A stretch of DNA of 64,000 nucleotides from a bacterium (lineage in GTDB: Bacteria > Margulisbacteria > Marinamargulisbacteria > SXXA01): contig CANIAP010000004.1 of the NCBI GenBank assembly GCA_947465765.1, positions 25,613 to 89,612 of the forward strand, in the 5' to 3' direction. Below, piece by piece: positions 14,858-37,545 of this stretch. Every line of letters begins with the position of its first letter. Positions within the stretch are counted from its first letter, which is position 1. The notes beneath the pieces are model-generated. The model was not told where the DNA came from. It searched no databases and saw only the letters and a list, made by a program, of their open reading frames with translations. The translations under genes and the position numbers were made by a program.

Positions 14858-14886
14858 AATTTCACCACCGTTACCGCAAAATCAAG

Positions 14887-17334: not shown

Positions 17335-17347
17335 GTAACACCTCTCC

Positions 17348-17674: not shown

Positions 17675-17688
17675 AATTAGGCTCCTTT

Positions 17689-18027: not shown

Positions 18028-18046
18028 ACCACTCGCCTCTTTTCAG

Positions 18047-18075
18047 TATATAAAATCGAGGTTCAAATCTACCAA
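18047..18075 (-). promoter_or_regulatory. candidate sigma70-type promoter for the 112-aa gene and the operon behind it
   Basis: On the minus strand, TTGGTA (18075-18070), a 17-nt spacer, then TATATA (18052-18047). It lies between the 88-aa gene terminator and ATG 18027. The predicted leader would be very short, which lowers confidence. Confidence 0.3.
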
Positions 18076-18104
18076 CGCCCACGTCAGCACAATTGAACCG
18101 CGAG

Positions 18105-18141
18105 AAAAAAAAACCCCGCCACCGGGATCGGTGGCGGGGTT
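18105..18141 (-). terminator. strong rho-independent terminator of the 88-aa gene
   Basis: Minus-strand transcript: AACCCCGCCACC-gauccc-GGUGGCGGGGUU followed by U9. Perfect 10-bp GC-rich stem (18114-18123 / 18130-18139), 6-nt loop, starting 6 nt after stop 18147-18149. Confidence 0.85.
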
Positions 18142-18146
18142 GATCA

Positions 18147-18413
18147 CTAACCTGCCGCTTGCTTAACTGCTTGAGCTGCTGTTTTAACTGCTTTTGAAAC
18201 GTTGTTCGGAAGACCTTGCTTGACTTGGTACATTGTTTCCGCTTCAGTAATTTCTAACTGAGACTTAACCATTGTTCCTAGTGAAGTACCGGTGGAAGCG
18301 GCACCCGAATCAATCGTATCACGAATCTTTGTCATATCAGCGGTGTAATCGTTCCCCGCCGCTTGTGCTGCGGAAGTCCGGTCTGCTGAGGTTTCTAACT
18401 TTAGTGCTGCCAT
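18147..18413 (-). CDS. hypothetical 88-aa Ala/Thr/Gln-rich helical-hairpin protein (monocistronic)
   Basis: AAGGAG 8 nt before the ATG, and a dedicated terminator. No Cys, Trp, His or Phe, and one Pro. Two predicted helices flank a Gly/Ser/Thr turn (DSGAASTGTSLG). Confidence 0.65.
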   Translation of the reverse strand: MAALKLETSADRTSAAQAAGNDYTADMTKIRDTIDSGAASTGTSLGTMVKSQLEITEAETMYQVKQGLPNNVSKAVKTAAQAVKQAAG

Positions 18414-21779: not shown

Positions 21780-24700
21780 CTATTTGAGAGACCCTGCCAT
21801 TTTCAATTTTAATACGGCAATTTTATTCGCCCTGGCCTTGACCTTTGCCATCAAGTCTTTTTCTAACTCAGAGGTTTCTTCACGGTAGCCTGCGACCGAC
21901 ACCTTAATTGTCCCCAGAGTCGCCATCTGTTGTGCCGCCATCCGTTGTCTGAAGGGGAACCCGATCAAGGCCTTCACTTTTTTAACATCCGCTGACCGAG
22001 ACGACTCCCACGCCTGCCCAATTATGGAATCAGGAAGCGCTGCATTGACCGACGATATCGCCATCGCAGTCCCATCCGACCGCCCGGATGGAACCAAATA
22101 ATCACCGGCATTTACGGGGCCAATGACCTTGACAGGGACTTGGCCCATAAACGAAGTCAGTGCCATTTGGTCTAGACGATCCGCCTGCCAGTTCCCGGCT
22201 ACGACCGGCGCAGAACTAATCACCAACAACTTATGCCGACCGCTCGTTTGAAAGGACACCTTCCCAGTATCTACACTGACAACATCCCCAGGTTGAAACG
22301 AATCCGAGGCAACAAGCTTATCCACATACTCGGCGTAATCCGCCTCAGGGGAGGTGAACTGAACCCCACCGGACCCATCTCCTTCAATCGAACCAATGAC
22401 CTCCGGATCGTAGGTAGGATAGGCGGGATTACCGAACCGATCCTTATTGTTGGCGATAAAGGATACAAAATTAGAGTTAGTCGAATTTCCGAGATTTCTT
22501 ACCGCCACACCGTAAAGAGGATGGCTGATTGCGTTGCCCGTGACGGTCACCAGTACGGTGTGGTTACCTGTGGCATGAGCTGTTCCTGACGGATTACTTG
22601 TCGACACTACATGTAACGCCGCCTCAGGATTCGCAGTACCAATACCCACCCCGCCTTGAAGGGTATAAGTCACTTTACCCGCTTGAATAGCAAATGGATC
22701 ATCCGCCAGCTGGGTCCGTAGATTTTCAGGCGCAATATAGCCAGTCACTGCAACTGAGAAATTCGCCGTAATGCCTCCTTGGGTTACGCTTGGTTGAGTA
22801 TAACCCACCAACAATCGTGCATTGGGCTCCGCAGTATTCCCTTCCCCAACCGCCATACGCAATTCGCTCCAGCCACCAGACCCTGTGTCACCGTAGATGT
22901 TGTACCGCCCAATATACATCGGATCTTTATTATCACTGTCGATAGTACTCACAAACGTAGGTCCACCCGACAAATACACCCGAGAACCCCATCCTTCGGT
23001 TCCGGCAAACACTGAATTGGTAATAACCCCCAAGCGAACATCCCCACTGACATACAAGGCGTCATTCACAAGCACCGAACTCGTAGCCACCCCATTGTAG
23101 TAGGCACCGACAACGACCATGCCACTTGTGCTAGTCTTAGCCGACGTATTGGCGCTTACCTCCAACATCACTATCCCATACGTTTTTGTGGCGACCCCAT
23201 TACCATAATCCACTCTCAACTCGTACCCGGGCCTTGTATACTCTTTGAATGCGAGAACTGAGGGGGTACTCATGGCAAGTGCTACCCTATTAGACGAGGT
23301 AGATGGGTTCGCATACCGAGCGACAAACCGAATGACATCCGCAGACGCCACGTTCGTCGTTACCCCACGATAATCCATCGCCTGTATCAGCAGTGCCGCA
23401 GCGGTTGCAGATTTTGCATCGTCCGTGGACCCAATTGCAACTTGTCCACCGGTAAATAGCGCGGGATATTTCAAGCCTCCTTTGGACCCGCCGGGCGTAA
23501 TCGGATCGAATATATTCATCGAAGCTACATCGACGTTCACCCCAACCACATAACGTTTAATACCAGGAGCACCGACAGTCCCACCCGCCGAAGAGGTGAC
23601 GCCCAACGACATCCCAATAACGTTAAGGGGGAAATCGGCGTCAATCGTTAAATAATTCCGCTGAAGCTTCGCCTTGGTCGCGGATACACTTCCAGGCGCA
23701 GTCTGAGTCAACGTGAGCACCGGACGCCTCGCAGTCGTGTCGTTATCCGTCGCAACCAACTGATTGGTACTTACCGACGCTGCAACCAAACTGCCATAAT
23801 TCCCGTTGGATGAGGATATCCGAGCATTGCCGCTCACGACAAGAGCAAGAGTAGAATTAGAGGTGCCGATACCCACCCCAGCAGAATTCACGATAAAATA
23901 GGAGGGCCCACTCACCACTTTCAGAATCGGATCCGTACTTCCCGAGATGGTCAGTAACGCATCTGAAGTAACCGTTCCGATCGATACCCTATTTTGATAA
24001 AGCTGCATGTCAACCACGCCATTTTCGATAAACGAGACAGAGGACGTCGGAACGTTGAGCCAACTCAAAACACTGTCGGCCGACTGGCCATTCGTGGTGA
24101 CACCCACAAATAGATACCTATTTTCGGTCACCGCTAAAATTCCTGGTGAAAACGTCGCAGCCGTAGCGTTGTACAATGTCGGTGTAAGGGTACCTGGAAT
24201 GGTGACGCTACCAGTTCCCGCCCTCAACGCAACCCTCGCGAAGAATCCCGCATTCGTTGTCGTGCCGTATACACCTGCCTCGCCATTTCTAGAGACAATC
24301 AATACATTATTAACGCTGGCCACCAGAAATGGGAAGGTCGGTGACGCGACAGGCGGATTAAACGAGACGTCTAACGCGTACACGGGTGAAATCGTCCGAA
24401 TACCCACTCGCCCCGCCGAATCCACAAGGAATTTAGAATCAACGCCAAGGGCCGCGTTATCCGAAGTGATCTGCATTGCAAAACTTGATCCATCGCCGAG
24501 TATATGGAGCGTGGCTGACGGAACGTCCGTACCAATCCCTACCCTATTTTGACTGGATATCGACATAATATTACGGTTTGAACTGTCTTTAATATCTAAA
24601 ATCCCACCCGCCGAACTCGCTAACGCTTTAACGTGCAACGCCGCACTGGCCGGTGGCGTTCCAATAGACACTCTTGCGTCAGACGTGCCCACTACCAACA

Positions 24701-27700
24701 CATCCGATATCGAGCTCGAACCACCAACGGCAAACTTAACCGATTTAGATTTATCTCGAGGAGCAAAGTTACCCGCCGCTTGCGAGTTTGGGTTTTGACC
24801 CAGAGAATGGGCGGTACCACTATACAGATCGGATACATGGAGCACCGCGTTTGGATTAGCGGTGACGTAACTACTCCCAAAGTCCTTCAAAAATATCCCG
24901 ACGTTCCCTGTAGAATCTCCCGCGTTATCGACTAAGAATATAGCCGCCGCCTTTTGACCGAGAATTGAGAAATCCGACCCAAGGGGTAACTCTGTTGAGT
25001 TTTTTGCATATATTTTTGTCAAATCCACCCGAAGCCCAACGGCGATATCTTCTACACCCGCCTGTACCCTGGCGACATTGCCTGATGGAAACACAATCGA
25101 CATCCCTCCAAAATCATCCGTTGAGCCATTAGTCCGAGCACCAAAGTCCATTTTAATGAGTTCCCCAGTGAAAGACCCGTTGGTAGTTCCTATGTTGGAG
25201 GACACCGTCAAAACACGTTGGCCTACACCACTCGACGGATTATACGAGGTGGCAATTGCGTTGACTGACACGACCCTAACCAACCCGTTAACCGTCCAAT
25301 TTAATCCATTTGGAGATGACGTCAGCTGCGAGTCCGAACCGTAATACGGAAAAACATTCCCCGTGCCGGACATCGCCCGCGTGATATTGAGAGACACGGT
25401 TGGGCCCCCATTGTAGACGTACAGCAAGTCAAAAGAGGCCGTTTTCGCTACCGAAAGGACGCCATACCCAGACTTAAACGCCCCAATGCTTGCCGATGCA
25501 ATCAGCAGTGTCGACGCGGTCATATTCCCGGTCACGTTCACCGTCGGAGCCGTGAACCTAACCGTGGGCATTACCAAAACAAGGTCAGAATGTAATTCAT
25601 TGGTTGAAACCTGATTATTGGTAGAAATTGAACCATCAACCCACAAATTCCCCCCAATCGTCACAAGCCCATTACCCGACACCGCCAACGAATAAGAGCT
25701 ATTCACAGTCGCACTGCCAATTGCAATCCGATTCGCAGTAACCAGAGTTGCGATCAAATCGGACGTCACATTCAACGTTGCTGCTGGAGCCAGAACTTGC
25801 AGATTAATCGTTACCCCATTACCCGACCTGAACTGAAGGGTATTGGAAACGTTAATCTCTGGCCCAGCCGCTATATTATCAACAAATAACAACCCATTAA
25901 TACTCACGCCCTTGACCGATCCGGAGGCAACCAAACCATTTACCGTCACTCCATCAAGATCAAAATCCGCACTAGCCACCCATAAATTATTACCCGCCAA
26001 GGCGCCGGAAATATCTAGCACGGACGTCGGTAAGGTCGTCCCAATCCCGACGTTTCCCCCATTCAAAATCAGAGAGTTGGCACTGACATTCGTCGTCGGA
26101 GATATATAGATCCCAGTCAATACCCCATTGGACCCCAACGCCAATCCGCTTCCATCCACATTCATCCCCACCGCCGCGACACTCGCTCCGGTACCCCCAA
26201 AGGTCGCCAACGCTGCCGATGTAGCAACAAATTCCACGGCCGTTATATTTCCTGTTACCGACCCCGTCGTGTTTATACTCACGGTTTCCATCGTAAACGC
26301 CGCAGTTAAATTACCTGGCCTCAAAAACGATCGGCTCAATTCTAATTGCGCAGCAGGCGCCGTCGTTCCAATTCCGACATTACCTTCGGCCGTAACCACC
26401 AAGCCCCCATTACTTCCACTAATATCGATTGTCTTTGGAACAATTCCACCCGTTGCTTTCAACGTGGTCGCTTTTCCTTGTCCATTTACCCACAACCCGC
26501 TACTTGGCGCCGTCGTTCCCCCAATGACTACCCCTCGATTAGGGCCGACTATTATCCCAGCCCCGCCACTATTGTAGATTCCTAATGTATCCGTTGTGCC
26601 ATCTATCCCGTTCACTACCAACCGGGACGTCCCCATATTTACCGAACTGCCCACTCCCACCGATCCGTTGTTCGACACAATCAACAAATCCCTAAGCACA
26701 CTATTGACCGTACTTTGTACAACAAAGTCGCCGCGTCCGTTTACCGTCACTACCGTCGCGATATACAAATCCGCCAAACCTCTGATCGGGATATTCGGAC
26801 TCGTTACGATCACCACGTTCCCACTCGTCTGTTTTCCGCTCATAAACACCGCAGGTATCATACTTCCCGTTATTTTTTCTCCAAATCGATTCGTTACACT
26901 GCTTGATACGCCAGCAAACTCAACGATCACGCCCGCGGCGATATCGCCGGCACTCGTACTCAATTTATCCAGGCTATTTCCCATTTTCACTGACATTGCA
27001 TTAATCGTTGTCGCATTACTTGCACTTCTTGCGCCTACTTCAAGATCTACTGCATATACTGTCGTTCCACTCGCGGATATCGTCGGGATTTGTGTCATTG
27101 TCTTTAATATCGCCGATCCGCTCACTCTTTCCAGTGATGAAGCTGTACTACCCACTCTCAGCATCCCAATAGTGTTGTTAACCGTCACATCCATATACGC
27201 ATCCGAAGACAATTGTCTCGACGTATTAAAATACCCCATCCGATTCCCTGAACCGACCAATGTATTACTAATATTAGCCGTAACGCTCGCCACTCTGTTT
27301 ACATATATTAAATTGTTTTGACTTGCACTATCGACATACAAAAATGAGTCCATTGTCGGGGTCGCACTCGGCGCCGCGGTCGGTTTTAAACCCAACGTTT
27401 TCGCAGCCCACGCACCACTACTCACCACACGTCGATTCGTGGTTACAGCGCCGACAATATTGAGCTGACCCGACACACTAATCGTATTAACGGTCACTGC
27501 GCCGTTGATCGTTACAGCGTTCACAACCGCGGATCCGCTCACGATTAACGCGTTAGCGGTCCCCCCACTCCACAAATTCATATCCGCATTAAACGTCGGA
27601 ATCACCAATCGGTTAAACGTCGCTACCACCGACGACAAATCACCCACCGTTATGATCGGATACATTAAACTCCCCGGAATACTATTTACCAAATCGGCGC

Positions 27701-30700: not shown

Positions 30701-33700
30701 AACCGACTACTTCAAGCGGCACGGAGGGATTAGAGAGGCCAATTCCCACACGATTCGGCGAATAAATCGACATCCCATTATTCTCCACATTAATGGTGCT
30801 GATTATTAATCCGTTAGATATTTTAAAAAAATTAGATATAACCGTGCCTCGAACCTCAAGTTCTACACTTGGAGTCGCACCTATCCCTACACCGGCCCCT
30901 GCTCCCGCCATAAAAATCGCAGGAAACCGATATCCTCTGTCGCCGACGTCCTGAACCGTCACATTAGAAACATCAACAGAGAGCCCATAGGCTGTCCCAT
31001 TTTTAGTAAATAAAGTCGACTGAGATCCAACCCTAGAATTACGAAGAACAATGTCCTGACCCTTGATTACGAACGGCCGATCTGTTGGGCCTACATTATC
31101 GTTCCAATCTTGTGCGCCGTTGGGCCATCGGTCGATAACACCGTATATTCCAACAGAATTAAATGCGCCTGACCGAGAAATATCTTCATCGTAAGTTCCG
31201 TGAGACACCACTCCCAGTGCCCGAGATCCATCCAAGGGCATCACACTCCAATTATGACTCACCGTGTAAGTCGAAGCTGAGATTTTGGCGCCCAATGCAA
31301 CCGGTGCAGTAACCACCAAATAACCGGCAACAGCCCCAACCGGGGAGACCCAAAGCAGAGGGGCTTCTGCCAAAATAGTCAGCGTATTAGATGCCCCAAT
31401 CGCCCACTCAGCAAGAAACCCCTTCGGGCCACTCCCTGAAGTTAACACTTTCGAAATATTGATAGTTTGCCCCAATGAATCGTCCATTACGAGATCATTT
31501 CGGTCGACATAAAGCTTAATGTCACTCTGCGCAACCGAATCCCTCAAATAATGATAGTACTCCGTCAACCCATTTTCTAATCTAAATTCATCCGAAATAA
31601 TAAACGAATTACCCCCGCCAGCCACGACGTTAATGGTCCCCGCCACATCCAACGCATATTCAGGAACCGTCTGCCCAATGCCTACAAAACTGCTGGCATC
31701 TCCAACGACAGTGTTCCAGTAAATATCGGTTCGTCCATTGCCTCTATCTAGACTTGGCCATCCATATATCGATCCCCGAACGGCCAACGCCCCAGCACTC
31801 ATTTTGCTTACGCCAACCGTATGTGTAGGTGCTGACTCAAATCCTTTAATCCGAACCTGCCCAGAAATAGCCGTTTTTCCTGAGTTCTCTAACTCAGCAC
31901 GGGGACGAGTAGTCCGAATACCAACGTACCGATTGTAAATAGATAGTGGCGGAATTGAGGAAATCGATGACTCCCCACCCGGAAATATCCTTAGGACATC
32001 CGTATCAAACCGAGACACCCCAATACTAAATAGGTCAATATTATTAAGATCATATGTCAGTACGGGACTAATAAAGGGACCACCTGGGGATAATAGGCTG
32101 CTTCTATTAGACAGCTCCAATGTGAAATTAGGGGACGTTGTTCCCACGCCGACGTTGCCTACTGCCGCTATCCGACCATCAGAAAGGACATTTGCAGAAG
32201 GAAAAAAAATGTTGGGCGTGGTTCGCTCCCATTGCCACACTTCGGGCGAATTACGAGTCGGCAAGGTTTGTCCATCTGGAAAACTAAATACGTTGGTATA
32301 AATTTTGCCTTCTACATCTAGAAACCACGCCACGCTTGGAGGGGTGCCTACCAACTGAGAATTGGTTGCGCCACGCGCCGCAAGGTCTGGAAACCGACCG
32401 ATACCAATATTCGAGGATGCACTCACCATCATTGATGGAGACGCTAGTTTTGAACGATTAAAATATACCGCCAACAGATCACTCGTCACCCGAGATTGCA
32501 TCGCAAGAATCGCAGAACCGGCAGGCGAATTTACCGACATATTTCTAGACACTAACAACCCTATAGACCGAGACGGTTGCATTCCAATCCCAACGCCACC
32601 GGCATTACTCACGGCAAAATACGATCGATCCCCAATAAAATTAAATATTAGTGAATAATAAGTCGATTCCAGCATCTTCCGAATCGCCAGCTCAAACCCC
32701 GACGACGACGCCCCAGAGGCAAAAACAAGAGGAATACCGGGTCTAAATTTCGAGGAAAGTATACCCGATGAATCGATATACCCTGCAGCAACCAAGTCAT
32801 TAAAAACCCTCACAGAAGCGGACCAATCAATCGAGTCCCAATTCGCAGAATAGAAATAGTCACTATTCGTACCCACACCGGAATACCCTAAAATCGATGT
32901 GGGGGTAATACGAAGGCCGGCAACGGTTAACGCCGAGTACCGTATCTCACTACCAAACTCCCAAAATGTGGACGAGGTTCCAATCCCGACGCCCTTGGTC
33001 GCTCGAATCAAGACTTGGTTCTCTGTAACGGACGAAAAACCCAGCGGTGAGCTCCCATCCGCCCAGACCCATACCCCATGATGAAGCGCTAACGCCCCCC
33101 GCCCCATGGCCAAAGAAAAGTCTCCCTGCGCCTTATTAAGCTGCCCACCGATAATCGTTGAATAGGCGCCAGAGGCCTGGTTACGATCACCTCCGATAAC
33201 AGCAGAAAAATTTCCGCCCGCAAAGGGGTTAAGTCCCATCGCAACGGAATAGAGCCCAATATTAGAGTCATTCCATTCCGCCCCACCCATAGGGGAGTCG
33301 ACCGTAATACTCCCTGCACGAAACGCCGCTTCTCCGGGATGAAACGTCAGCCTCGTCCCCGCCCCGGCAACGTCAACCGTCACACCGGACTCAACCGCCC
33401 CCGACAAAATCAATCCAGAATCACCTTGAACATGTAAATTTGCTTTTGGATTACGAAGCCCCACACCAAATCGGTCATCAAACGCGACAAACAATGGGGT
33501 CGCACTCCCTATAGAGGTTCCTCGTTCCACCCGAAAAACTTCGTCATCTTTAGCGCTAATCCCTAACGTATAACTGGATTGCCCCGAAAGCCCCAAGCGG
33601 GACGTAAAGGTAACCGCTGGATTTTTAGTTGGCTCATCCGCATCTCGGTTCGGAGCAGCAATATCAAGAAGCGTCATCGGATCCGGCCGCCCAAGCCCAA

Positions 33701-35126
33701 CGTTACCATACAAATAATACAAATCGTTGACGTTATTACGTAACCAAAATGTTCCCTTGGAGATACTCAGCCGAATCGGAGTTCCATTCACATACAAATC
33801 CTGGGCGTTCATAACACCGCCCACAGAGAGCCGGGACGACGGCGCATTGGTCCACACTCCGATATCCCCGGAACCAACAATACTAAACAGAGGCTGATTT
33901 AGCGTCGATACCACATTAAAATACGGCGCGACGACCGCCGTCGGCCCCGAAATTTCTAGGAGCGTTTTTGCTGGCCCCCCAACGCCCAAAAATCCACTTT
34001 CCTTTGTATAAAAAATGGGCGCCGCATTGGCCACTCCTGGCCGAATCCCTTGCGGCATAAACACAGCCAATCGACCCGGACGGCCGTCGGATTTAAAGCC
34101 AGTCAATGACACCCAATTCCGAGTCGTGATTCCAGACTCGCCCCCAATATCTGTATACCCCTGAAAATCTTTGCCTGATTCAACAGACGCGAATCGAATC
34201 GTTCCTGGAACCGTTTTATCTGTGATATCGATCCGAACACCGCCTCGAATTTCCAGTGCTTCCGCAGGAACCGCAGTACCGATACCAACGCGACCCGACC
34301 GATTCAAATAAATATTGGCCGTACTAGCAGAACTTTTCAACCAATCTTGGGATGCCGATAATTTTCGGCCATTTAGTAAAAACCCATATGCATTCAATGT
34401 CGTTGAAACATTAAGCGCGAATACCGAAAAATCAGACCCCACCGCCACCGCAGGGTACACCGTGTAAATATTATTGGGACTTCCCGGAGATACCCGCCAC
34501 GGTAGCCGATCGCGAATATCCACGCCGGCCGCAGTAAATTGAGTTGCGTTAATATATCCATCCACATCTAGGGGAAATAAAGGCGCCTGATTCAAAATCC
34601 CCACCCGGCCAGTGGTACTCTGAACATAAAGCGCATTTTTTGAAGTTACATTCAGAGATCCATTGATGATAAAAGGACCTTTAAACGTTCCCTTTATTGA
34701 ATTACCTTCCACCTTTTTAGCATAACTCGCGATGTCGGTATGAATGGAAAACGGAGTCGCTGAAATGGGAAATGTCGCGACATCCCCGGCAGCAGCAATC
34801 TGAAGAATCAATGGCGCGTTTGAAAACACCGATGATGGGATCACCGCCGATGGGATCTCAATCGCAAACTGTCCTCCCGAAAATTTTACAGAAGAAGTCG
34901 GCGAATACGTCCAAACGACCGTATTGCTAGTAGGAACAATTAAGCTGGCCGTCACAATAAACGCCCCCTCCAGAAGACGCCCGTGTGACACAAAATAGTC
35001 TGAAAACTGTACCGGAGCCGCACCAACAAAGCCGCTAAAACATAACGCGATTGCCAGAATACAAGAACTTAAATGAATCCGACGCGTATTAAATCGCGAT
35101 TTAACGTACGCAATAAGTGGATGCAT
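21780..35126 (-). CDS. giant (4448 aa) secreted tail-fibre-like / beta-solenoid fibril protein with a reiterated GxVGIGT..P...L.V.G motif
   Basis: Single uninterrupted frame. ATG 35126 is preceded by GAGGAG (4-nt spacer); the ORF track begins at in-frame GTG 35138. The N-terminus has a basic stretch plus hydrophobic core (SSCILAIALCFSGFVGAAP), consistent with a signal peptide. About 29 copies by eye of G(N/R)VGIGT..P...L(E/D/H)V.G, a YadA-head-like SxAxG segment, and a conserved C-terminal ADYAEY...GDVV...GQVPVKV...GDYL domain. Confidence 0.9.
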   Translation of the reverse strand: MHPLIAYVKSRFNTRRIHLSSCILAIALCFSGFVGAAPVQFSDYFVSHGRLLEGAFIVTASLIVPTSNTVVWTYSPTSSVKFSGGQFAIEIPSAVIPSSVFSNAPLILQIAAAGDVATFPISATPFSIHTDIASYAKKVEGNSIKGTFKGPFIINGSLNVTSKNALYVQSTTGRVGILNQAPLFPLDVDGYINATQFTAAGVDIRDRLPWRVSPGSPNNIYTVYPAVAVGSDFSVFALNVSTTLNAYGFLLNGRKLSASQDWLKSSASTANIYLNRSGRVGIGTAVPAEALEIRGGVRIDITDKTVPGTIRFASVESGKDFQGYTDIGGESGITTRNWVSLTGFKSDGRPGRLAVFMPQGIRPGVANAAPIFYTKESGFLGVGGPAKTLLEISGPTAVVAPYFNVVSTLNQPLFSIVGSGDIGVWTNAPSSRLSVGGVMNAQDLYVNGTPIRLSISKGTFWLRNNVNDLYYLYGNVGLGRPDPMTLLDIAAPNRDADEPTKNPAVTFTSRLGLSGQSSYTLGISAKDDEVFRVERGTSIGSATPLFVAFDDRFGVGLRNPKANLHVQGDSGLILSGAVESGVTVDVAGAGTRLTFHPGEAAFRAGSITVDSPMGGAEWNDSNIGLYSVAMGLNPFAGGNFSAVIGGDRNQASGAYSTIIGGQLNKAQGDFSLAMGRGALALHHGVWVWADGSSPLGFSSVTENQVLIRATKGVGIGTSSTFWEFGSEIRYSALTVAGLRITPTSILGYSGVGTNSDYFYSANWDSIDWSASVRVFNDLVAAGYIDSSGILSSKFRPGIPLVFASGASSSGFELAIRKMLESTYYSLIFNFIGDRSYFAVSNAGGVGIGMQPSRSIGLLVSRNMSVNSPAGSAILAMQSRVTSDLLAVYFNRSKLASPSMMVSASSNIGIGRFPDLAARGATNSQLVGTPPSVAWFLDVEGKIYTNVFSFPDGQTLPTRNSPEVWQWERTTPNIFFPSANVLSDGRIAAVGNVGVGTTSPNFTLELSNRSSLLSPGGPFISPVLTYDLNNIDLFSIGVSRFDTDVLRIFPGGESSISSIPPLSIYNRYVGIRTTRPRAELENSGKTAISGQVRIKGFESAPTHTVGVSKMSAGALAVRGSIYGWPSLDRGNGRTDIYWNTVVGDASSFVGIGQTVPEYALDVAGTINVVAGGGNSFIISDEFRLENGLTEYYHYLRDSVAQSDIKLYVDRNDLVMDDSLGQTINISKVLTSGSGPKGFLAEWAIGASNTLTILAEAPLLWVSPVGAVAGYLVVTAPVALGAKISASTYTVSHNWSVMPLDGSRALGVVSHGTYDEDISRSGAFNSVGIYGVIDRWPNGAQDWNDNVGPTDRPFVIKGQDIVLRNSRVGSQSTLFTKNGTAYGLSVDVSNVTVQDVGDRGYRFPAIFMAGAGAGVGIGATPSVELEVRGTVISNFFKISNGLIISTINVENNGMSIYSPNRVGIGLSNPSVPLEVVGSISSVGARSSRGVIAQFLNTTSGGLVVTNTGLVGVGLSTPVALFDLYRQFGDPIVGPYSFYNVEIISTGNNGPVVVPVTGVGITLNAVNSGSTTFGNRLGSDTVAAKGYGIRLNLTGLALTPTGTAVGIDVKVSDSRSSRNATVFIGGNVGIGVSNPTSPLEVKGTIFGTDAPSANFLQQINVASFNRLIVPRGLLVLNDVIAAAMVVTNDVRLDNLIALNAIELGTTTLNVSGEAILNTVSVNMIKSVDMVSIGISTINTATFNTLGVGQLGGSNPLGVVGGMIVGAVTVNRAVYTGLLVVNTSNLVVGGNGRVGVNVSNPLTPLQVMFDGQDPNPGNRFDASLFQTWNGVVAQNPSSVAGVGVGVLLVPDTSLGENIGSGVVALGDVDVSGGMERERSHHLLFITDPDTGLPMERMRLTSNGDLGIGTSIPDGRLAINGGLLVSGRVSANALLTSSVVGTSVAFEVTTNVQPTMSLSGIAILRQLSMKPIAAFNVTSGNFSLFSNASGNINLATFQDGSSLVANFGRREVVPSPSIPFFSEKNVLNGTLFAKWDSIVGAGTQNVLSMGQTGAFGFVPGTQMFQVVSGVSSTTPQSSVSAEGVSVELGARTTGSSTTFVGIDVLMVSTSGVSAQDVVVGVSVGVSSDLKTLTYSPSGQVITGRKMAAVFTAGASSSNVLIVATSSSLASLPNVGDMYILNKERQAALRVTILDSDGATYNELIVSRNGDVGINSESPVAPLSIEPRPGDRRVSVMSAQLLPLFDIDPADNVGIGTSKPSVKLQVVGTLNAAIASINGLLTSDTIGITTSNLFVVLSNGYVGMGTSVPVAQHHLKKSFNLPSDLTAPYSLMSSRFETALGDFGGDVPLDSIGLQIVVTSNSGGNFGQAGTPVKVSGLNIDLSGLNLHSNSVLYGVKVAVATSNNQMKSALFMGGGVGIGISSPQAALEVGGTLGGGNVILTTPIDWSIGEVTANRMFVSGDGVMDVLENRGLVTVNTLVISADLVNSIPGSLMYPIITVGDLSSVVATFNRLVIPTFNADMNLWSGGTANALIVSGSAVVNAVTINGAVTVNTISVSGQLNIVGAVTTNRRVVSSGAWAAKTLGLKPTAAPSATPTMDSFLYVDSASQNNLIYVNRVASVTANISNTLVGSGNRMGYFNTSRQLSSDAYMDVTVNNTIGMLRVGSTASSLERVSGSAILKTMTQIPTISASGTTVYAVDLEVGARSASNATTINAMSVKMGNSLDKLSTSAGDIAAGVIVEFAGVSSSVTNRFGEKITGSMIPAVFMSGKQTSGNVVIVTSPNIPIRGLADLYIATVVTVNGRGDFVVQSTVNSVLRDLLIVSNNGSVGVGSSVNMGTSRLVVNGIDGTTDTLGIYNSGGAGIIVGPNRGVVIGGTTAPSSGLWVNGQGKATTLKATGGIVPKTIDISGSNGGLVVTAEGNVGIGTTAPAAQLELSRSFLRPGNLTAAFTMETVSINTTGSVTGNITAVEFVATSAALATFGGTGASVAAVGMNVDGSGLALGSNGVLTGIYISPTTNVSANSLILNGGNVGIGTTLPTSVLDISGALAGNNLWVASADFDLDGVTVNGLVASGSVKGVSINGLLFVDNIAAGPEINVSNTLQFRSGNGVTINLQVLAPAATLNVTSDLIATLVTANRIAIGSATVNSSYSLAVSGNGLVTIGGNLWVDGSISTNNQVSTNELHSDLVLVMPTVRFTAPTVNVTGNMTASTLLIASASIGAFKSGYGVLSVAKTASFDLLYVYNGGPTVSLNITRAMSGTGNVFPYYGSDSQLTSSPNGLNWTVNGLVRVVSVNAIATSYNPSSGVGQRVLTVSSNIGTTNGSFTGELIKMDFGARTNGSTDDFGGMSIVFPSGNVARVQAGVEDIAVGLRVDLTKIYAKNSTELPLGSDFSILGQKAAAIFLVDNAGDSTGNVGIFLKDFGSSYVTANPNAVLHVSDLYSGTAHSLGQNPNSQAAGNFAPRDKSKSVKFAVGGSSSISDVLVVGTSDARVSIGTPPASAALHVKALASSAGGILDIKDSSNRNIMSISSQNRVGIGTDVPSATLHILGDGSSFAMQITSDNAALGVDSKFLVDSAGRVGIRTISPVYALDVSFNPPVASPTFPFLVASVNNVLIVSRNGEAGVYGTTTNAGFFARVALRAGTGSVTIPGTLTPTLYNATAATFSPGILAVTENRYLFVGVTTNGQSADSVLSWLNVPTSSVSFIENGVVDMQLYQNRVSIGTVTSDALLTISGSTDPILKVVSGPSYFIVNSAGVGIGTSNSTLALVVSGNARISSSNGNYGSLVAASVSTNQLVATDNDTTARRPVLTLTQTAPGSVSATKAKLQRNYLTIDADFPLNVIGMSLGVTSSAGGTVGAPGIKRYVVGVNVDVASMNIFDPITPGGSKGGLKYPALFTGGQVAIGSTDDAKSATAAALLIQAMDYRGVTTNVASADVIRFVARYANPSTSSNRVALAMSTPSVLAFKEYTRPGYELRVDYGNGVATKTYGIVMLEVSANTSAKTSTSGMVVVGAYYNGVATSSVLVNDALYVSGDVRLGVITNSVFAGTEGWGSRVYLSGGPTFVSTIDSDNKDPMYIGRYNIYGDTGSGGWSELRMAVGEGNTAEPNARLLVGYTQPSVTQGGITANFSVAVTGYIAPENLRTQLADDPFAIQAGKVTYTLQGGVGIGTANPEAALHVVSTSNPSGTAHATGNHTVLVTVTGNAISHPLYGVAVRNLGNSTNSNFVSFIANNKDRFGNPAYPTYDPEVIGSIEGDGSGGVQFTSPEADYAEYVDKLVASDSFQPGDVVSVDTGKVSFQTSGRHKLLVISSAPVVAGNWQADRLDQMALTSFMGQVPVKVIGPVNAGDYLVPSGRSDGTAMAISSVNAALPDSIIGQAWESSRSADVKKVKALIGFPFRQRMAAQQMATLGTIKVSVAGYREETSELEKDLMAKVKARANKIAVLKLKMAGSLK

Positions 35127-35149
35127 CTGACTCCTCACTCAACAAATGA

Positions 35150-36079
35150 TCAAAAATTAAGCGCAAGGGAAAAATAGTGGATACCACTATACTCGGGATG
35201 ATCACTATGTTCATACGCATAATCAAATTGATTTCCGAAAACATCAATTCCAAGCCCCATCGAAACTTTACCCCTAATTGCGCTCAAAACAGGAAACTCC
35301 TTGTAGCCCCCTGACACACGGATAAATGGAATGAAGGACGGAGTATAAATGAGGGCAGCGCTTTTAGCCAGCCTCTTTGAGCTCCCTAGAATCTTAATTT
35401 GCCCCATCACATCCACATCGCCAATCGCAAACCGGGTACCGACTATCGTCTCTAGCGGCAAATTTTCAGTCATCCCATTGGAGTATTGAACCTTTAAACC
35501 TGTCGCAACATTCCTAAGCAATAACGAAACCCCGACACCATCAGCGTCGTACAACACCCCCGCATCAAAATTAACGCCTGTCCCCGTCACGGAATCAATG
35601 ACTGTACTATAATAAGTGGCCGCAACCCCCAGATGAATCCGCTCGGATTGCGAAATAGAATATCCAATTTTATACACTGACTTTGTTAAAGAAAACGAGC
35701 CATCCTCCACCAACCGCTCCAAAGTTGACCCCGCATTAACAAGGCGCGCCCTTGGAATATCTGCAACGCCCACCGTATTAAACCCAATTCCAAAACTCCC
35801 CATGGCAGTCGACATCCCCACCGCGCCGTTGGTGTAAGGAACCTCTCCCATCAAATTAGTAGAAAATAATGAGAGAGATGACGATTGAATACGAAACAAC
35901 GCCGCGGGATTCTCAAATACGCTGTCCCCATTAGAAGAAAAACCCTCAATCCCGCCAACCCGAATACCACGGGCAGAAGATCCGATTTCAGTCCCCATAA
36001 AATAGTCCGCATCCGCAAACACAGAACCGCTCACCATCATGACGCAAACCACAACCCATAATCCGAAGAAAGTTTTCAT
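35150..36079 (-). CDS. outer-membrane beta-barrel protein (PorV / UPF0164 / PorP-SprF-like)
   Basis: Signal peptide MKTFFGLWVVVCVMMVSGSVFA|DA, an ENPAAL motif near the N-terminus, alternating-hydrophobic strands throughout, and a C-terminal ...YFSLALNF ending in Phe (beta-signal). The start overlaps the upstream stop (ATGA). Confidence 0.7.
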   Translation of the reverse strand: MKTFFGLWVVVCVMMVSGSVFADADYFMGTEIGSSARGIRVGGIEGFSSNGDSVFENPAALFRIQSSSLSLFSTNLMGEVPYTNGAVGMSTAMGSFGIGFNTVGVADIPRARLVNAGSTLERLVEDGSFSLTKSVYKIGYSISQSERIHLGVAATYYSTVIDSVTGTGVNFDAGVLYDADGVGVSLLLRNVATGLKVQYSNGMTENLPLETIVGTRFAIGDVDVMGQIKILGSSKRLAKSAALIYTPSFIPFIRVSGGYKEFPVLSAIRGKVSMGLGIDVFGNQFDYAYEHSDHPEYSGIHYFSLALNF

Positions 36080-36702
36080 GGAATAATCGCCACCTTTCCC
36101 TTACCCATTACCTTGCCTTCATGCATGATGAGCACAAAGTAAACCCCGGCCGACAACTGAAACTGATCAAATGAATTATTGGAAAACATCAACCAATTCA
36201 CCCCTGACTTGCCCCCTTGACTCCCTGCGGAAAACTGGGTCTTTAGAATCATGTTTGCCAACATGTCGTAAACACGAATCTCAACATCCATATTTTTCGA
36301 AAGCACATATGAGAGCTTTGGACTCTCCGCTTGGCGGGCAGGATTTGGGTAAAACAAGGGCTTTCCGACAACTTCGGCAACCACCCCAGCCTCTTCTTGC
36401 AACTGGGCATCCACCACTACTTTGCCCGCCAAATCCGACTGCACAGTATTCTTAAAACTCACCCCCAAGACCGCAATTTGATTCGCGCCACCTTTCAAAT
36501 CAGACGCCGCACTTGACCCCGCACCGGAAAAATCTCCATTAAGATAAAGAAGTGAATTATAAGCAACCGACTCCACGGTAATAGCCCCGAATGCAGGGGT
36601 TGCAAAAAACGCCACCACGGTCACCAAGCCAAAAATGGCCAGCGCAACTACTAGCTGTTTCTTCCACAATCTATTGAAATTGAAACCTTGAAACAATTTC
36701 AT
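36076..36702 (-). CDS. small exported protein with a T9SS-type / FlgD-Ig-like C-terminal beta-sandwich domain
   Basis: Start taken at ATG 36702 (GGGGGA upstream), giving MKLFQGFNFNRLWKKQLVVALAIFGLVTVVAFFATPAFG (signal or anchor). C-terminus LFYPNPA...VEIRVYDMLANMI...LSAGVYFVLIMHEGKVMGKGKVAIIP matches the Por_Secre_tail/FlgD_ig pattern (yPNPa...i.iyd..G..v...l.aGvYf..i). Confidence 0.65.
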   Translation of the reverse strand: MKLFQGFNFNRLWKKQLVVALAIFGLVTVVAFFATPAFGAITVESVAYNSLLYLNGDFSGAGSSAASDLKGGANQIAVLGVSFKNTVQSDLAGKVVVDAQLQEEAGVVAEVVGKPLFYPNPARQAESPKLSYVLSKNMDVEIRVYDMLANMILKTQFSAGSQGGKSGVNWLMFSNNSFDQFQLSAGVYFVLIMHEGKVMGKGKVAIIP

Positions 36703-36803
36703 TGATTTCCCCCAAAGCCGAAGCTTGGCCTCCCTGGATAGTCTGTGCGGGCTTGGAACACCACGCTCTAACAGGCCCTGTATCGTAGAACCTTTATAAA
36801 AAC

Positions 36804-36831
36804 TTGCATCCGAATTTTTATACGCTACAAT
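36804..36831 (+). promoter_or_regulatory. candidate sigma70 promoter of yggS (very short leader)
   Basis: TTGCAT (36804-36809), a 16-nt spacer, then TACAAT (36826-36831). ATG 36844 is only ~6 nt beyond the expected TSS and has no SD. Confidence 0.4.
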
Positions 36832-36843
36832 CCATCCCTCAAG

Positions 36844-37545
36844 ATGCATCCAATTTCAAAAGATATTATTGACGTACAGAGTGCACGATGGACGGCCTTA
36901 ACGGCGAAGGTGAACCGCTATACGCAGGACAAATCCCGCCCCATATCGATCCTCGCCGCCACTAAATACGGAACCGCCGAAGACGCCGCCGGACTGATCC
37001 TTGCGGGCGCAACCCTTATTGGGGAAAACCGCATTTCCGATGCCGAGCACCGGTTACACGAACTTGCCGCACACCCACTCCCCTCATTTGCCGCCCATTT
37101 TATTGGCACACTTCAACGCAACAAGGTTAAACGGGCCCTCACGTTGTTCTCCTGTATCCAATCAATGGACCGAGACGCCCTCTTCACGGAAGTTCAAAAC
37201 GAATGCCATGCACAAGGCCGATCGATCGACGTTATGCTGCAAATCAATACCGGCGATGAGCCCTCCAAATCGGGGTACTCCATTCCCGATGTACGTATCA
37301 GACACCCTCATTTGTTTGCGTTTCCAAATATTAAAATCATCGGTATAATGGCCGTCACTCCGTTTTCCCCGAATTCCGAGGAAGTACGGCCTTTTTTCAA
37401 ATCCGCTCATCGCCTCTTCTGTGAATTGCAACCGCTTTACCCCGAATTGATTCATCTCAGCATGGGAATGAGTCAGGACTATCAAGTTGCAATTCAGGAA
37501 GGGGCCACAATAATTCGTATCGGCAGTGTCCTTTACGGACGATAG
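36844..37545 (+). CDS. yggS: YggS-family pyridoxal-phosphate homeostasis protein
   Basis: ILAATKYG (PLP Lys), HFIGTLQRNK, LSMGMSQDYQVAIQEGATIIRIGS. Confidence 0.9.
   Translation: MHPISKDIIDVQSARWTALTAKVNRYTQDKSRPISILAATKYGTAEDAAGLILAGATLIGENRISDAEHRLHELAAHPLPSFAAHFIGTLQRNKVKRALTLFSCIQSMDRDALFTEVQNECHAQGRSIDVMLQINTGDEPSKSGYSIPDVRIRHPHLFAFPNIKIIGIMAVTPFSPNSEEVRPFFKSAHRLFCELQPLYPELIHLSMGMSQDYQVAIQEGATIIRIGSVLYGR

What the first reader, a model, noticed from the sequence alone, without database searches (positions are those of the whole stretch)
21780..36702. Three-gene operon: T9SS/FlgD-Ig-type CTD protein, a PorV-like OM barrel, and a 4448-aa fibril protein
The genes are translationally coupled. 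The first stop and second start overlap as ATGA at 36076-36079. A 23-nt gap carrying GAGGAG precedes ATG 35126.

- Gene 1 (208 aa): a signal or anchor, a ~80-aa region, and a C-terminal beta-sandwich matching the Por_Secre_tail/FlgD-Ig pattern.
- Gene 2 (309 aa): a signal-peptide-bearing barrel with an ENPAAL motif and a terminal Phe, like PorV/UPF0164/PorP-SprF proteins.
- Gene 3: one of the largest genes expected in a bacterial genome (13.3 kb, about 21% of this window), with a Sec-type N-terminus but no recognisable CTD, LPXTG, autotransporter barrel or TPS domain of its own.

The arrangement suggests a dedicated mini-system in which the barrel, and possibly the CTD protein, export or anchor the fibre. 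I know of no described secretion or anchoring pathway with this composition. Giant genes in uncultured lineages have been linked to attachment or predation.
Basis: partly seen in the sequence, partly recalled or inferred. Interest (0 to 1): 0.8.

Follow-up and report, generated by a model that had tools for sequence, protein, structure and literature searches.

The report
Giant surface fibre with PorV-like dock
An uncultured Margulisbacteria-type bacterium encodes a 4,448-residue phage-tail-fibre-like surface fibre together with its own outer-membrane barrel and a small partner protein borrowed from the type IX secretion toolkit, a conserved three-gene set that has not been described and may show how such fibres are fixed to the cell.

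Summary
Three co-oriented, tightly coupled genes lie at 21780-36702 on the minus strand.

- **Gene 1 (208 aa):** it carries a type A T9SS sorting domain. It scores 29.1 bits against TIGR04183 (cutoff 23), and 13 of 13 homologs match.
- **Gene 2 (309 aa):** it is a roughly 14-stranded barrel. Its best structural matches in the PDB are the two PorV chains (TM 0.73-0.74). It is too divergent to pass the PorV/PorQ family cutoff (51.6 bits against 90).
- **Gene 3 (4,448 aa):** this is not an orphan. It is a very large member of the trimeric, phage-tail-fibre-like fibres known from Bdellovibrio MAT proteins. It has UspA1/YadA-like beta-roll repeats and at least 20 "GxVGIGTxxPxxxLxV" motifs.

The triad recurs in at least 15 loci of Marinamargulisbacteria and related genomes, in different neighbourhoods, and twice in one genome. 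About 50 representative clusters (one per 50%-identity cluster) of complete giants (2,859-5,651 aa) share the architecture.

My best reading is that the CTD protein and the barrel form a dedicated outer-membrane dock for the fibre, comparable to PorZ-PorQ. How the fibre crosses the outer membrane, and whether a full T9SS exists in these genomes, could not be tested. I rate it a new variant of known kinds, of moderately high interest.

The parts
36076..36702 (-). Gene 1: 208-aa secreted or membrane-anchored adaptor protein with a C-terminal T9SS type A sorting domain
   Evidence: ORF. The start is supported by homologs. TIGR04183 scores 29.1 bits against a cutoff of 23, and 13 of 13 homologs match it.
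36586..36702 (-). Gene 1 N-terminal signal peptide or signal anchor (residues 1-39, ...ATPAFG|A)
   Evidence: Read from the sequence. AF2 predicts a helix at residues 9-33. Cleavage is inferred, not shown.
36079..36375 (-). Gene 1 CTD (residues ~110-208). It is a seven-strand beta-sandwich in the model. It has YPNP, GVYF and a terminal GKGKVAIIP; most of these residues are invariant across the 13 homologs.
   Evidence: The Pfam PF18962 match is 24.3 bits, just under its cutoff of 27.
35150..36079 (-). Gene 2: 309-aa PorV/PorQ-like outer-membrane barrel of about 14 strands, with a signal peptide (VFA|DAD), an ENPAAL motif and a terminal Phe
   Evidence: NF033709 E 1e-13, 51.6 bits against a cutoff of 90. 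31 of 32 homologs match it. AF2 pLDDT 87.2. Foldseek's top two hits are PorV chains 8gl6_F and 6h3i_F, TM 0.74 and 0.73.
36076..36079 (-). ATGA stop/start overlap coupling gene 1 to gene 2
   Evidence: The gene calls at L001, L003 and L005 show the same 4-nt overlap.
35127..35149 (-). 23-nt spacer with the GAGGAG ribosome-binding site ahead of the giant gene
21780..35126 (-). Gene 3: 4,448-aa giant fibre protein, including its stop codon
   Evidence: It is collinear with orthologs. About 60 representative clusters of giants match from their own N-terminus.
35019..35126 (-). Giant: Sec-type signal peptide (residues 1-36)
   Evidence: Read from the sequence. Orthologs have typical signal peptides.
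33552..35018 (-). Giant: N-terminal region (residues 37-525) that is specific to this family. It is the candidate cell-proximal or docking end.
   Evidence: Only giants, or fragments of them, match this part. Comparison with other fibres' N-termini gave no significant match. The role is inferred.
32967..33551 (-). Giant: widely shared fibre module (residues 526-720) containing UspA1/YadA-head-like beta-roll repeats, followed by the WVWADG...VGIGT motif
   Evidence: Thousands of fibres match this stretch. PDB UspA1 3pr7 matches at E 9e-8.
25134..29279 (-). Giant: tandem super-modules of about 616 aa (residues ~1950-3331), 25-35% identical to one another
   Evidence: Windowed self-BLAST shows offsets of 615-617 residues.
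22341..22679 (-). Giant: last GGVGIGT motif and the conserved pre-cleavage module (residues 4150-4262)
   Evidence: Alignment A1.
21783..22340 (-). Giant: C-terminal Peptidase_G2 / phi29-gp12-type auto-chaperone (from D4263 of DYAEY) plus a helical tail. The predicted self-cleavage site is A4262|D4263.
   Evidence: Homologs carry PF11962. The profile hits the chaperone domains of Dpo31 (E 4e-4) and phi29 gp12 (E 0.016). D, A and E of DYAE are invariant. About 50 giant orthologs have the domain. The window protein alone scores only 15.1 bits. Cleavage is inferred.

Best explanation
**What it is.** The locus encodes a lineage-specific cell-surface fibre system.

**The fibre (gene 3).**
- It is exported by Sec.
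- It folds into a very long homotrimeric fibre rich in beta-helix and beta-roll, of the phage-tail-fibre / Bdellovibrio-MAT type.
- Trimerisation is nucleated by its C-terminal gp12-type (Peptidase_G2) auto-chaperone. That domain then cuts itself off at about A4262|D4263 and exposes the distal tip.
- The fibre has grown by tandem duplication of ~616-aa super-modules.

**The dock (genes 1 and 2).**
- They form a dedicated outer-membrane dock. The type A CTD of the small protein binds the PorV/PorQ-like barrel, as cargo CTDs bind PorV and PorZ binds PorQ in type IX secretion.
- The N-terminal half of the small protein holds the fibre's family-specific N-terminal region.
- This supplies in trans the C-terminal sorting and anchoring domain. 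The fibre cannot carry that domain itself, because its own C-terminus is a chaperone that is discarded.

**Likely use.** Attachment to particles, hosts or other cells.

**Shown:** gene structure, the domain and fold assignments, and conservation of the triad.

**Inferred:** trimerisation, self-cleavage, CTD-barrel binding, adaptor-fibre binding, surface location and adhesive role. The route across the outer membrane is unresolved.
For: **Gene structure and coupling:**

**CTD protein:**
- TIGR04183 passes its cutoff.
- All 13 homologs match it.
- The CTD is the most conserved part of the protein.

**Barrel:**
- 31 of 32 family members match PorV/PorQ HMMs.
- The AF2 model is confident, at pLDDT 87.2.
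- Its two best PDB matches are PorV in the SprA translocon complexes, one of them CTD-bound.

**Fibre:**
- The profile matches Bdellovibrio Bd2133 (8ond, E 7e-6) and the Dpo31 and phi29 gp12 chaperone domains.
- 17 of 22 C-terminal homologs match PF11962.
- D, A and E of DYAE are invariant.
- There are UspA1-like repeats and at least 20 GxVGIGT motifs.
- About 50 complete orthologs of 2,859-5,651 aa share the N-terminal region, the G2 chaperone and a coiled-coil tail.

**Functional linkage:**
- CTD protein, barrel and giant are found together in L001-L013, L015, L019, L024, L025 and one further contig. Neighbourhoods differ, and one genome has two copies.
- No other ORF with this CTD occurs in about 465 kb of related DNA.
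- A short G2-chaperone fibre in another lineage has no such partners.

**Literature:**
- The cell-surface partner of the MAT fibre N-terminal domain is unknown (PMC10769870).
- The gp12-type D4 domain acts as an auto-chaperone and is cleaved off (PMC13317679).
- Fimbriae-like tubes are seen on the one imaged Marinamargulisbacteria member (PMC6784892).
Against: - No physical interaction was tested. Co-folding was not available.
- The gene 1 model is poor (pLDDT 57.1), and its Foldseek matches are generic Ig-like folds.
- The barrel fails the curated PorV/PorQ cutoff (51.6 against 90 bits). The family profile finds no PorV by sequence in the PDB.
- The window's own C-terminal domain is below the Pfam cutoff (15.1 against 25 bits). 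It has no tblastn match in the phage collection.
- A dock does not explain how a fibre of about 450 kDa per chain crosses the outer membrane.
- A stand-alone barrel paralog exists without a fibre or a CTD gene.
- One complete ortholog (L015) lacks the G2 domain.
Confidence: 0.5

Rival explanations
1. This is a cargo set for a complete T9SS encoded elsewhere. The genome would have SprA/Sov and a PorKLMN-type machine. Gene 1 would supply a CTD in trans so that the CTD-less fibre is exported by piggy-backing. The barrel would be a dedicated PorV-like shuttle that takes the complex from the translocon.
For: - The CTD passes the curated type A model.
- The barrel's best structural matches are PorV bound to the SprA translocon.
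- A second, stand-alone PorV/PorP-like paralog in relatives hints at a wider system.
- This reading would explain how the fibre crosses the outer membrane.
Against: - T9SS is regarded as confined to the Fibrobacterota-Chlorobiota-Bacteroidota group (my own knowledge, not tested here).
- No paper in the library links Margulisbacteria to T9SS.
- No other CTD-bearing ORF and no SprA-sized ORF occurs in about 465 kb of related DNA. This is weak evidence, because the sample is biased and the HMM is narrow.
- Piggy-back export of a trimeric fibre through SprA has no precedent that I know of.
Confidence: 0.22
2. This is a self-contained export pathway. The barrel itself would be the outer-membrane conduit for the unfolded fibre, and the CTD protein would act as a plug, usher or initiator. 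No other machinery would be needed.
For: - The three-gene unit is strictly conserved, and the neighbours are always unrelated housekeeping genes.
- No other secretion genes lie nearby.
- The system sits outside the phyla known to have T9SS.
Against: - A 14-strand FadL/PorV-type barrel, with N-terminal helical segments predicted ahead of the first strand, is not a known protein-conducting channel.
- The closest structures are a shuttle protein and small-molecule transporters.
- No energy source or POTRA-like domain is present.
Confidence: 0.1
3. The association is incidental or regulatory. Genes 1 and 2 would be general envelope components, for example a PorQ/PorZ-like pair serving other substrates, that merely share an operon with a highly expressed surface protein. 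Alternatively the giant forms an S-layer-like coat rather than discrete fibres.
For: - A barrel paralog exists away from any fibre gene.
- The fibre's shared modules occur in thousands of proteins without such partners.
Against: - CTD protein, barrel and giant are adjacent at about 15 distinct loci with barrel identity down to about 34%, across changing neighbourhoods.
- The whole triad, not the fibre alone, is duplicated within one genome.
- The stop/start overlap is conserved.
Confidence: 0.08

Closest known systems
PorV-cargo CTD and PorQ-PorZ pairs of the type IX secretion system (Flavobacterium johnsoniae, Porphyromonas gingivalis)
   Same: - A FadL-like barrel of about 14 strands is paired with a protein that bears a type A Ig-like C-terminal domain.
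- The barrel's best structural matches are PorV chains.
- The HMM matches are to PorV/PorQ families.
- The CTD passes TIGR04183.
   Different: - The pair is translationally coupled and dedicated to one neighbouring gene.
- The CTD protein has almost no passenger, only about 70 residues.
- The barrel is below the family cutoff.
- The host lineage is Margulisbacteria-related, not Bacteroidota.
- The presence of SprA, PorKLMN or PorU is unknown.
SprB-SprF (and other type B CTD / PorP-SprF pairs) in Flavobacterium gliding motility
   Same: A giant surface adhesin is encoded next to its own cognate T9SS-family outer-membrane barrel. A barrel paralog in relatives passes the Pfam PorP_SprF cutoff.
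   Different: - The giant here has no type B or type A CTD. The CTD sits on a separate small protein.
- The barrel lies upstream of the giant.
- The window barrel itself does not match PF11751.
- The fibre is of the trimeric phage-fibre type, not SprB-like.
Bdellovibrio bacteriovorus MAT (mosaic adhesive trimer) fibres, e.g. Bd2133 and Bd3182 (PMC10769870)
   Same: - A signal peptide and a trimeric fibre with recurring GxxGIGTxxPxxxLHV capping motifs. The profile hits 8ond at E 7e-6.
- A C-terminal self-cleaving chaperone or an alternative tip.
- A proposed N-terminal cell-proximal domain whose partner is unknown.
   Different: - It is about four to five times longer (4,448 aa against about 1,000).
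- The chaperone is G2 / gp12-type rather than S74.
- The N-terminal region is specific to this family.
- It is accompanied by a dedicated barrel and CTD protein, which are not reported for MATs.
Phage phi29 gp12 pre-neck appendage and phage tail-spike Dpo31 (C-terminal auto-chaperone, MEROPS/Pfam Peptidase_G2)
   Same: - A C-terminal domain beginning at the Asp of DYAE.
- The profile matches 28nb (E 4e-4) and 3gqh (E 0.016).
- Homologs carry PF11962.
- The domain follows a beta-helical trimer-forming region.
   Different: - This is a cellular, Sec-exported protein with no phage genes nearby.
- It has no direct match to phage records.
- The window protein is below the Pfam cutoff.
Trimeric autotransporter adhesins (YadA, UspA1)
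   Same: UspA1-head-like left-handed beta-roll repeats, and a long trimeric surface fibre.
   Different: There is no C-terminal membrane-anchor barrel domain and no Pfam autotransporter hit. The barrel is a separate protein from a different family.

Membership tests
T9SS type A C-terminal sorting domain (TIGR04183 / PF18962) | Match to the curated HMM at or above its cutoff | tested here: met
   TIGR04183 scores 29.1 bits against a cutoff of 23. 13 of 13 homologs match. Pfam PF18962 scores 24.3, just under its cutoff of 27, for the window protein. Several homologs carry a precomputed PF18962 hit.
T9SS type A C-terminal sorting domain (TIGR04183 / PF18962) | The domain sits at the extreme C-terminus of a protein that has an N-terminal Sec signal | tested here: met
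   The domain spans residues ~110-208 of 208. The N-terminal segment is hydrophobic.
T9SS type A C-terminal sorting domain (TIGR04183 / PF18962) | Seven-strand Ig-like beta-sandwich fold resembling solved CTDs | tested here: inconclusive
   AF2 gives seven strands in the C-terminal part, but at pLDDT 57. Foldseek matches are generic Ig-like folds, with PorU at rank 6. The profile finds nothing in PDB sequences.
T9SS type A C-terminal sorting domain (TIGR04183 / PF18962) | The genome encodes the T9SS core (SprA/Sov, PorK/L/M/N, PorU) that recognises and removes the CTD | not testable with these tools
   Only 64 kb of this genome and about 400 kb of related loci were available. No such genes were seen there.
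PorV/PorQ family (NF033709, NF033711) | Match to the curated HMM at or above its cutoff | tested here: not met
   NF033709 scores 51.6 bits against a cutoff of 90 (E 1e-13), and covers profile positions 9-207 of 326. PorQ scores 38.8 against 220. 31 of 32 homologs match below the cutoff, with a best E of 3.4e-18.
PorV/PorQ family (NF033709, NF033711) | 14-strand FadL-type outer-membrane barrel that is closest in structure to PorV | tested here: met
   AF2 pLDDT 87.2, about 14 strands. The top Foldseek hits are 8gl6_F and 6h3i_F, at E 2e-11 and 4.5e-9 and TM 0.74 and 0.73. FadL and TodX follow at TM 0.5-0.6.
PorV/PorQ family (NF033709, NF033711) | Binds the CTD of a partner protein | not testable with these tools
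   Only genetic evidence is available. The barrel gene is translationally coupled to a CTD-protein gene in at least 15 loci.
PorP/SprF family with a type B CTD cargo (PF11751 / TIGR04131) | The barrel matches PF11751, and the neighbouring giant carries a type B CTD | tested here: not met
   The window barrel has no PF11751 hit. The giant has no NCBIfam or Pfam hit. Only the stand-alone paralog in L018 matches PF11751, at 34.1 bits against a cutoff of 22.3.
Peptidase_G2 / phi29 gp12-type C-terminal auto-chaperone (PF11962) | Match to the Pfam model at or above its cutoff | tested here: not met
   The window C-terminus scores 15.1 bits against a cutoff of 25, E 0.016. Membership rests on transitive homology. 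17 of 22 homologs match PF11962 at E below 0.01.
Peptidase_G2 / phi29 gp12-type C-terminal auto-chaperone (PF11962) | Homology to the solved chaperone domains, and conservation of the Asp/Glu at the cleavage site (D-x-x-E at the start of the released domain; the residue roles are from my own knowledge) | tested here: met
   Profile A1 hits 28nb_A (Dpo31 D4) at E 4e-4 and 3gqh_A (gp12) at E 0.016. Residue 1 of 3gqh_A aligns two profile columns after the G of GSDYAEY in the 28nb_A alignment, i.e. at the Asp of DYAE. D155, A157 and E158 are invariant in 22 sequences. Dpo31 D4 begins at Asp664 (PMC13317679).
Peptidase_G2 / phi29 gp12-type C-terminal auto-chaperone (PF11962) | Autoproteolytic release after trimerisation | not testable with these tools
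   This needs protein expression and mass spectrometry.
Bdellovibrio MAT fibre family | Signal peptide plus a trimeric beta-helical fibre with the recurring capping-loop motif | tested here: met
   A signal peptide is present. There are at least 20 motifs. The profile hits three stretches of Bd2133 8ond_A, each on the GxVGIGTxxPxxxLHV motif, at E 7e-6.
Bdellovibrio MAT fibre family | The conserved ~130-aa N-terminal beta-rich domain shared by all 21 MATs | not tested
   No full-length MAT sequence was available. The giant's residues 37-525 matched only its own giant family.
Bdellovibrio MAT fibre family | C-terminal S74 chaperone (SDxxxK), or one of the described alternative tips | tested here: not met
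   There is no S74 hit. The C-terminus is G2-type instead.

The most novel reading that the evidence does not exclude
The CTD-PorV/PorQ interaction would be a portable outer-membrane docking or sorting module that works without a type IX translocon. In this cyanobacteria-related lineage it would form a self-sufficient three-gene pathway that exports and/or anchors a trimeric fibre roughly 170 nm long. That length is inferred by scaling from the Bd2133 crystal structure. The sorting domain would be supplied in trans because the fibre's own C-terminus is a disposable chaperone. If so, this would be a previously unrecognised envelope pathway. It would also be a lead to the unknown anchor of MAT-type and tail-fibre-like fibres in other bacteria.
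Probability: 0.2. Interest if true: 0.85.

Novelty: new variant of a known kind. Interest (0 to 1): 0.62.

Why it matters
- **An open anchoring problem.** Thousands of bacterial proteins share this fibre's modules (7,547 representatives at E up to 1e-3). For the best-studied examples, the Bdellovibrio MAT fibres, the authors state that the surface element holding the N-terminal domain is unknown (PMC10769870). A fibre family that always travels with a specific barrel and adaptor gives a concrete, testable candidate for how such fibres are mounted.
- **T9SS parts in an unexpected lineage.** A bona fide type A CTD and a PorV-like barrel occur in a Margulisbacteria-related lineage. To my knowledge this is outside the group where type IX secretion is known. 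Either the range of T9SS is wider than thought, or its CTD-barrel recognition pair is an older, separable module.
- **Biology of an uncultured group.** The genes take up 13-17 kb in genomes of about 0.5-2 Mb (genome sizes from PMC6784892), and sometimes occur twice. That suggests attachment is central to the biology of this group, whose known relatives include an intracellular animal symbiont with fimbria-like tubes.

Tried and rejected
- **Whole-protein homolog search with the 4,448-aa giant:** it timed out. I replaced it with a search using the C-terminal 340 aa and a representatives search using residues 1-1200.
- **Genome scan with the 32-sequence barrel alignment:** I repeated it with 10 closer sequences.
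- **PDB sequence searches:**
  - The raw C-terminus gave only a chance hit.
  - The barrel profile found no PorV, only E 0.46 chance hits.
  - The gene 1 profile found nothing.
- **Gene 1 structure:** the model was too poor (pLDDT 57.1) for a meaningful fold search.
- **tblastn of the C-terminus against phage genomes:** no match. I rejected a prophage or tailocin origin for the locus for this reason. The neighbours are also housekeeping genes, and all three proteins have signal peptides.
- **PHROGs:** only weak hits to families of unknown function.
- **N-terminal comparison:** the giant's first 170 residues against other fibres' N-terminal domains gave no significant match.
- **Other scans:**
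  - Sigma-70 promoter and terminator scans were uninformative.
  - No tRNA or Rfam features were found in the window.
  - Literature searches linking Margulisbacteria or intramolecular chaperones to T9SS found nothing relevant.
- **Assembly artefact:** rejected.
- **Autotransporter, TPS, LPXTG or a CTD on the giant:** rejected.

Full report
**1. Observation**

The three ORFs exist as described.
- The giant ORF runs 21780..35138 on the minus strand. It is 4452 aa from a GTG and 4448 aa from ATG 35126.
- The barrel is 35150..36079, 309 aa.
- The longest ORF for the first gene is 36076..36849, 257 aa.
- Homologs of gene 1 begin at MKLFQGFNF and are 203-222 aa long. It leaves a 141-bp divergent intergenic region before the YggS-like gene at 36844.
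- The ATGA overlap at 36076-36079 and the 23-nt spacer containing GAGGAG before ATG 35126 are both present.

The surrounding genes are housekeeping genes: dapF, an aminotransferase, a polysaccharide pyruvyl transferase, a YggS-like gene, sepF, mazG, rseP and transketolase. No tRNA or Rfam element lies in the window.

**2. The giant ORF is real**
- The gene has no direct DNA repeats of 30 nt or more that could cause mis-assembly.
- The exact 4448-aa product is on record on a 109,988-bp NCBI contig. A variant of at least 90% identity (4455 aa) lies on a 110,128-bp ENA contig.
- The exact barrel sequence is on at least 23 contigs, listed in 33 blocks of the collection, 16 of which hold contigs of 50-200 kb.
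- Orthologs from other assemblies align collinearly: 56% identity over 3,335 residues with L001, and 27-33% over the N-terminal, central and C-terminal thirds with L003.

**3. Gene 1**
- It matches the NCBIfam type A T9SS sorting domain above the curated cutoff: TIGR04183, 29.1 bits against 23.
- The Pfam Por_Secre_tail match is just below its cutoff: 24.3 bits against 27.
- All 13 homologs match TIGR04183. One is named a T9SS C-terminal target domain protein by NCBI.
- The last ~95 residues are by far the most conserved part. They contain YPNP, GVYF and a terminal GKGKVAIIP, and most of these residues are invariant across the 13 homologs.
- The AF2 model is weak (pLDDT 57.1). It shows an N-terminal helix, a disordered stretch, a helix at 87-106, and a seven-strand C-terminal sandwich.
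- The fold search returned only generic Ig-like matches, so it is inconclusive.

**4. Gene 2**
- It matches the PorV/PorQ family model at E 1e-13, but at 51.6 bits it is well under the cutoff of 90. It also matches PorQ and 'PorV2' more weakly.
- 31 of 32 homologs match PorV_fam, and 29 match PorQ.
- With the 32-sequence alignment, AF2 gives a confident barrel of about 14 strands (pLDDT 87.2, pTM 0.80).
- Its two best matches among 350,542 PDB chains are chain F of 8GL6 and of 6H3I, at TM 0.74 and 0.73 and E 2e-11 and 4.5e-9. I recall chain F to be PorV in the F. johnsoniae SprA translocon complexes. One of the two entries has a bound RemA CTD.
- FadL and TodX follow at TM 0.5-0.6.
- A sequence profile of the family does not reach any PDB PorV.
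- It is therefore a structurally clear but sequence-divergent relative of PorV/PorQ.

**5. Gene 3**

As a whole it has no Pfam or NCBIfam match, but it is not an orphan.
- *Composition and motifs.* It is rich in Gly, Ser, Val, Ala and Thr and nearly free of Cys. It carries at least 20 copies of the motif G-x-[VIL]-G-[IV]-G-T-x-x-P-x-x-x-L-x-V.
- *C-terminal homologs.* A search with the last 340 residues found 22 relatives, several with the precomputed Pfam domain PF11962 (Peptidase_G2, IMC autoproteolytic cleavage domain). Scanned individually, 17 of 22 match PF11962. The window protein alone scores only 15.1 bits.
- *PDB profile hits.*
  - Bdellovibrio fibre Bd2133 (8ond, E 7e-6), through the repeated motif.
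  - The auto-chaperone domain D4 of tail-spike Dpo31 (28nb, E 4e-4).
  - A second Bdellovibrio fibre entry (8ojn, E 1.3e-3).
  - The C-terminal domain of the phi29 pre-neck appendage gp12 (3gqh, E 0.016).
- *Cleavage site.* The gp12 fragment starts at the profile column that corresponds to D4263 of DYAEY. D, A and E of DYAE are invariant in the alignment. Dpo31 D4 likewise begins at an Asp and is shed (PMC13317679). I therefore predict self-cleavage at A4262|D4263. This is inference.
- *Shared fibre module.* Residues 526-720 contain UspA1-head-like beta-roll repeats (PDB 3pr7, E 9e-8). This is the part shared with thousands of other fibres: 7,547 representatives at E up to 1e-3 and 1,689 at E up to 1e-10. 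Examples I read end in S74-type SDxRxK chaperones.
- *Family-specific N-terminus.* About 60 representative clusters match the query from their own N-terminus across residues ~20-720. All are 2,300-5,651 aa long, or are fragments.
- *Orthologs.* About 50 complete ones have the G2-type domain about 55 residues before the C-terminus, followed by a helical tail.
- *Internal duplication.* Residues ~1950-3331 are tandem copies of a ~616-aa super-module at 25-35% identity. This probably accounts for much of the size range among orthologs.

**6. Conservation of the triad**
- Contigs carrying barrel homologs at 76%, 43%, 39%, 34%, 43% and 35% identity all show a small protein (178-215 aa), then the barrel (309-352 aa), then a giant (2,489 to over 4,400 aa). 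Their neighbourhoods differ.
- A scan of species-representative genomes found 19 loci. Most carrying a taxon label are Candidatus Marinamargulisbacteria or Margulisiibacteriota. The rest are labelled only 'bacterium' or 'uncultured bacterium', and one is labelled Actinomycetota, which I suspect is mis-binned.
- Local HMM scans show the full triad in L001-L013, L015, L019, L024 and L025. One genome, GCA_042577605.1, carries two triads.
- Seven loci instead hold a stand-alone barrel between RNase T-like and fdhD/SpoIIE genes. These form one clade in a neighbour-joining tree. One of them passes the Pfam PorP_SprF cutoff.
- No other ORF in about 465 kb of held sequence carries this CTD.
- A short G2-chaperone fibre from another lineage has no barrel or CTD neighbour.

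**7. Mechanism**

*Shown:* the parts list and its conservation.

*Inferred:*
- The fibre is Sec-exported. Its C-terminal auto-chaperone trimerises it and is then shed.
- The fibre projects from the cell, with its N-terminus proximal as proposed for MAT fibres (PMC10769870).
- The gene 1 CTD binds the barrel as CTDs bind PorV and PorZ binds PorQ. That comparison rests on established T9SS knowledge, not on a test here.
- The rest of gene 1 holds the fibre base.
- Putting the CTD on a separate protein makes sense because the fibre's own C-terminus is discarded.
- I favour docking over the barrel acting as a conduit, because the fold is that of a shuttle or small-molecule transporter, with helical segments predicted ahead of the first strand.
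- Scaling from the 142-150 Å length of Bd2133 residues 662-1031 (PMC10769870) gives very roughly 170 nm for about 4,200 residues.
- Fimbria-like tubes were seen on the only imaged Marinamargulisbacteria member (PMC6784892). That is suggestive only.

*Unresolved:* how the fibre crosses the outer membrane, and whether a T9SS core exists elsewhere in these genomes.

**8. Comparison and novelty**
- Each part is a divergent member or relative of a known kind: type A CTD, PorV/PorQ barrel, MAT / tail-fibre-like fibre, gp12-type auto-chaperone.
- The combination is what is new. A CTD supplied in trans with a cognate barrel serves a CTD-less giant fibre, in a lineage outside those known for T9SS.
- I found no description of it in the paper library.
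- I rate it a new variant of a known kind, with interest 0.62. There is about a 0.2 chance that it represents a T9SS-independent pathway of much higher interest.

Noticed in passing
window 10979-18413 (-): This looks like an operon of unknown genes. It holds an 88-aa ORF (18147-18413) and two paralogous ORFs of about 110 aa (17689-18027 and 17348-17674). The 815-aa (14887-17334), 281-aa (14012-14857) and 600-aa (11945-13747) proteins have no NCBIfam hit; the 815- and 600-aa proteins were also scanned against Pfam without a hit. The three small ORFs were not scanned. The run ends in a lone 288-aa FlgE/F/G-family protein (10979-11845; TIGR03506, 90.2 bits against a cutoff of 70.25). No other flagellar genes are in the window.
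   Followed up: partly
L014, L016, L017, L018, L020, L022, L023 (e.g. L018:2422-3381): Relatives carry a monophyletic, stand-alone paralog of the barrel. Where I looked (L017, L018) it lies among housekeeping genes (def, dcd, an RNase T-like gene, then the barrel, then fdhD and SpoIIE). None of the seven loci has a CTD gene or a giant next to it. The L018 copy passes the Pfam PorP_SprF cutoff. Its substrate is unknown.
   Followed up: partly
L005:4070-15595 and L006:5427-14525 (both GCA_042577605.1): One single-cell genome carries two complete, diverged triads. The whole three-gene unit has duplicated, not only the fibre gene.
   Followed up: partly
L015:10930-20538: This giant ortholog is apparently complete (3,203 aa). 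It lacks the G2-type chaperone and ends in a different sequence. It is either an alternative tip, as in Bdellovibrio 'NS74' fibres, or a frameshift, since a 153-aa ORF overlaps its end.
   Followed up: no
L002:10954-20930 versus L001:10954-20930: Both contigs encode the identical barrel protein. The giant is split into two overlapping ORFs in the JGI contig but is continuous in the Logan contig. This is either a sequencing frameshift or a real pseudogenised or phase-variable copy.
   Followed up: no
window 25134-29279 (-): The giant contains tandem super-modules of about 616 aa at 25-35% identity, with offsets of 615-617 residues. Fibre length appears to have evolved by duplication of whole modules.
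   Followed up: yes
window 6129-7085 (-): This is a HEAT-repeat protein. Its best named matches are the cyanobacterial NblB and CpcE/F phycobilisome lyase and degradation families, all far below their cutoffs. That is curious in a non-photosynthetic sister lineage of Cyanobacteria.
   Followed up: no
window 1-64000: GC skew on the + strand is negative in every 2-kb bin of the window. This includes the stretches where genes lie on the + strand. It is strongest across the giant gene.
   Followed up: no
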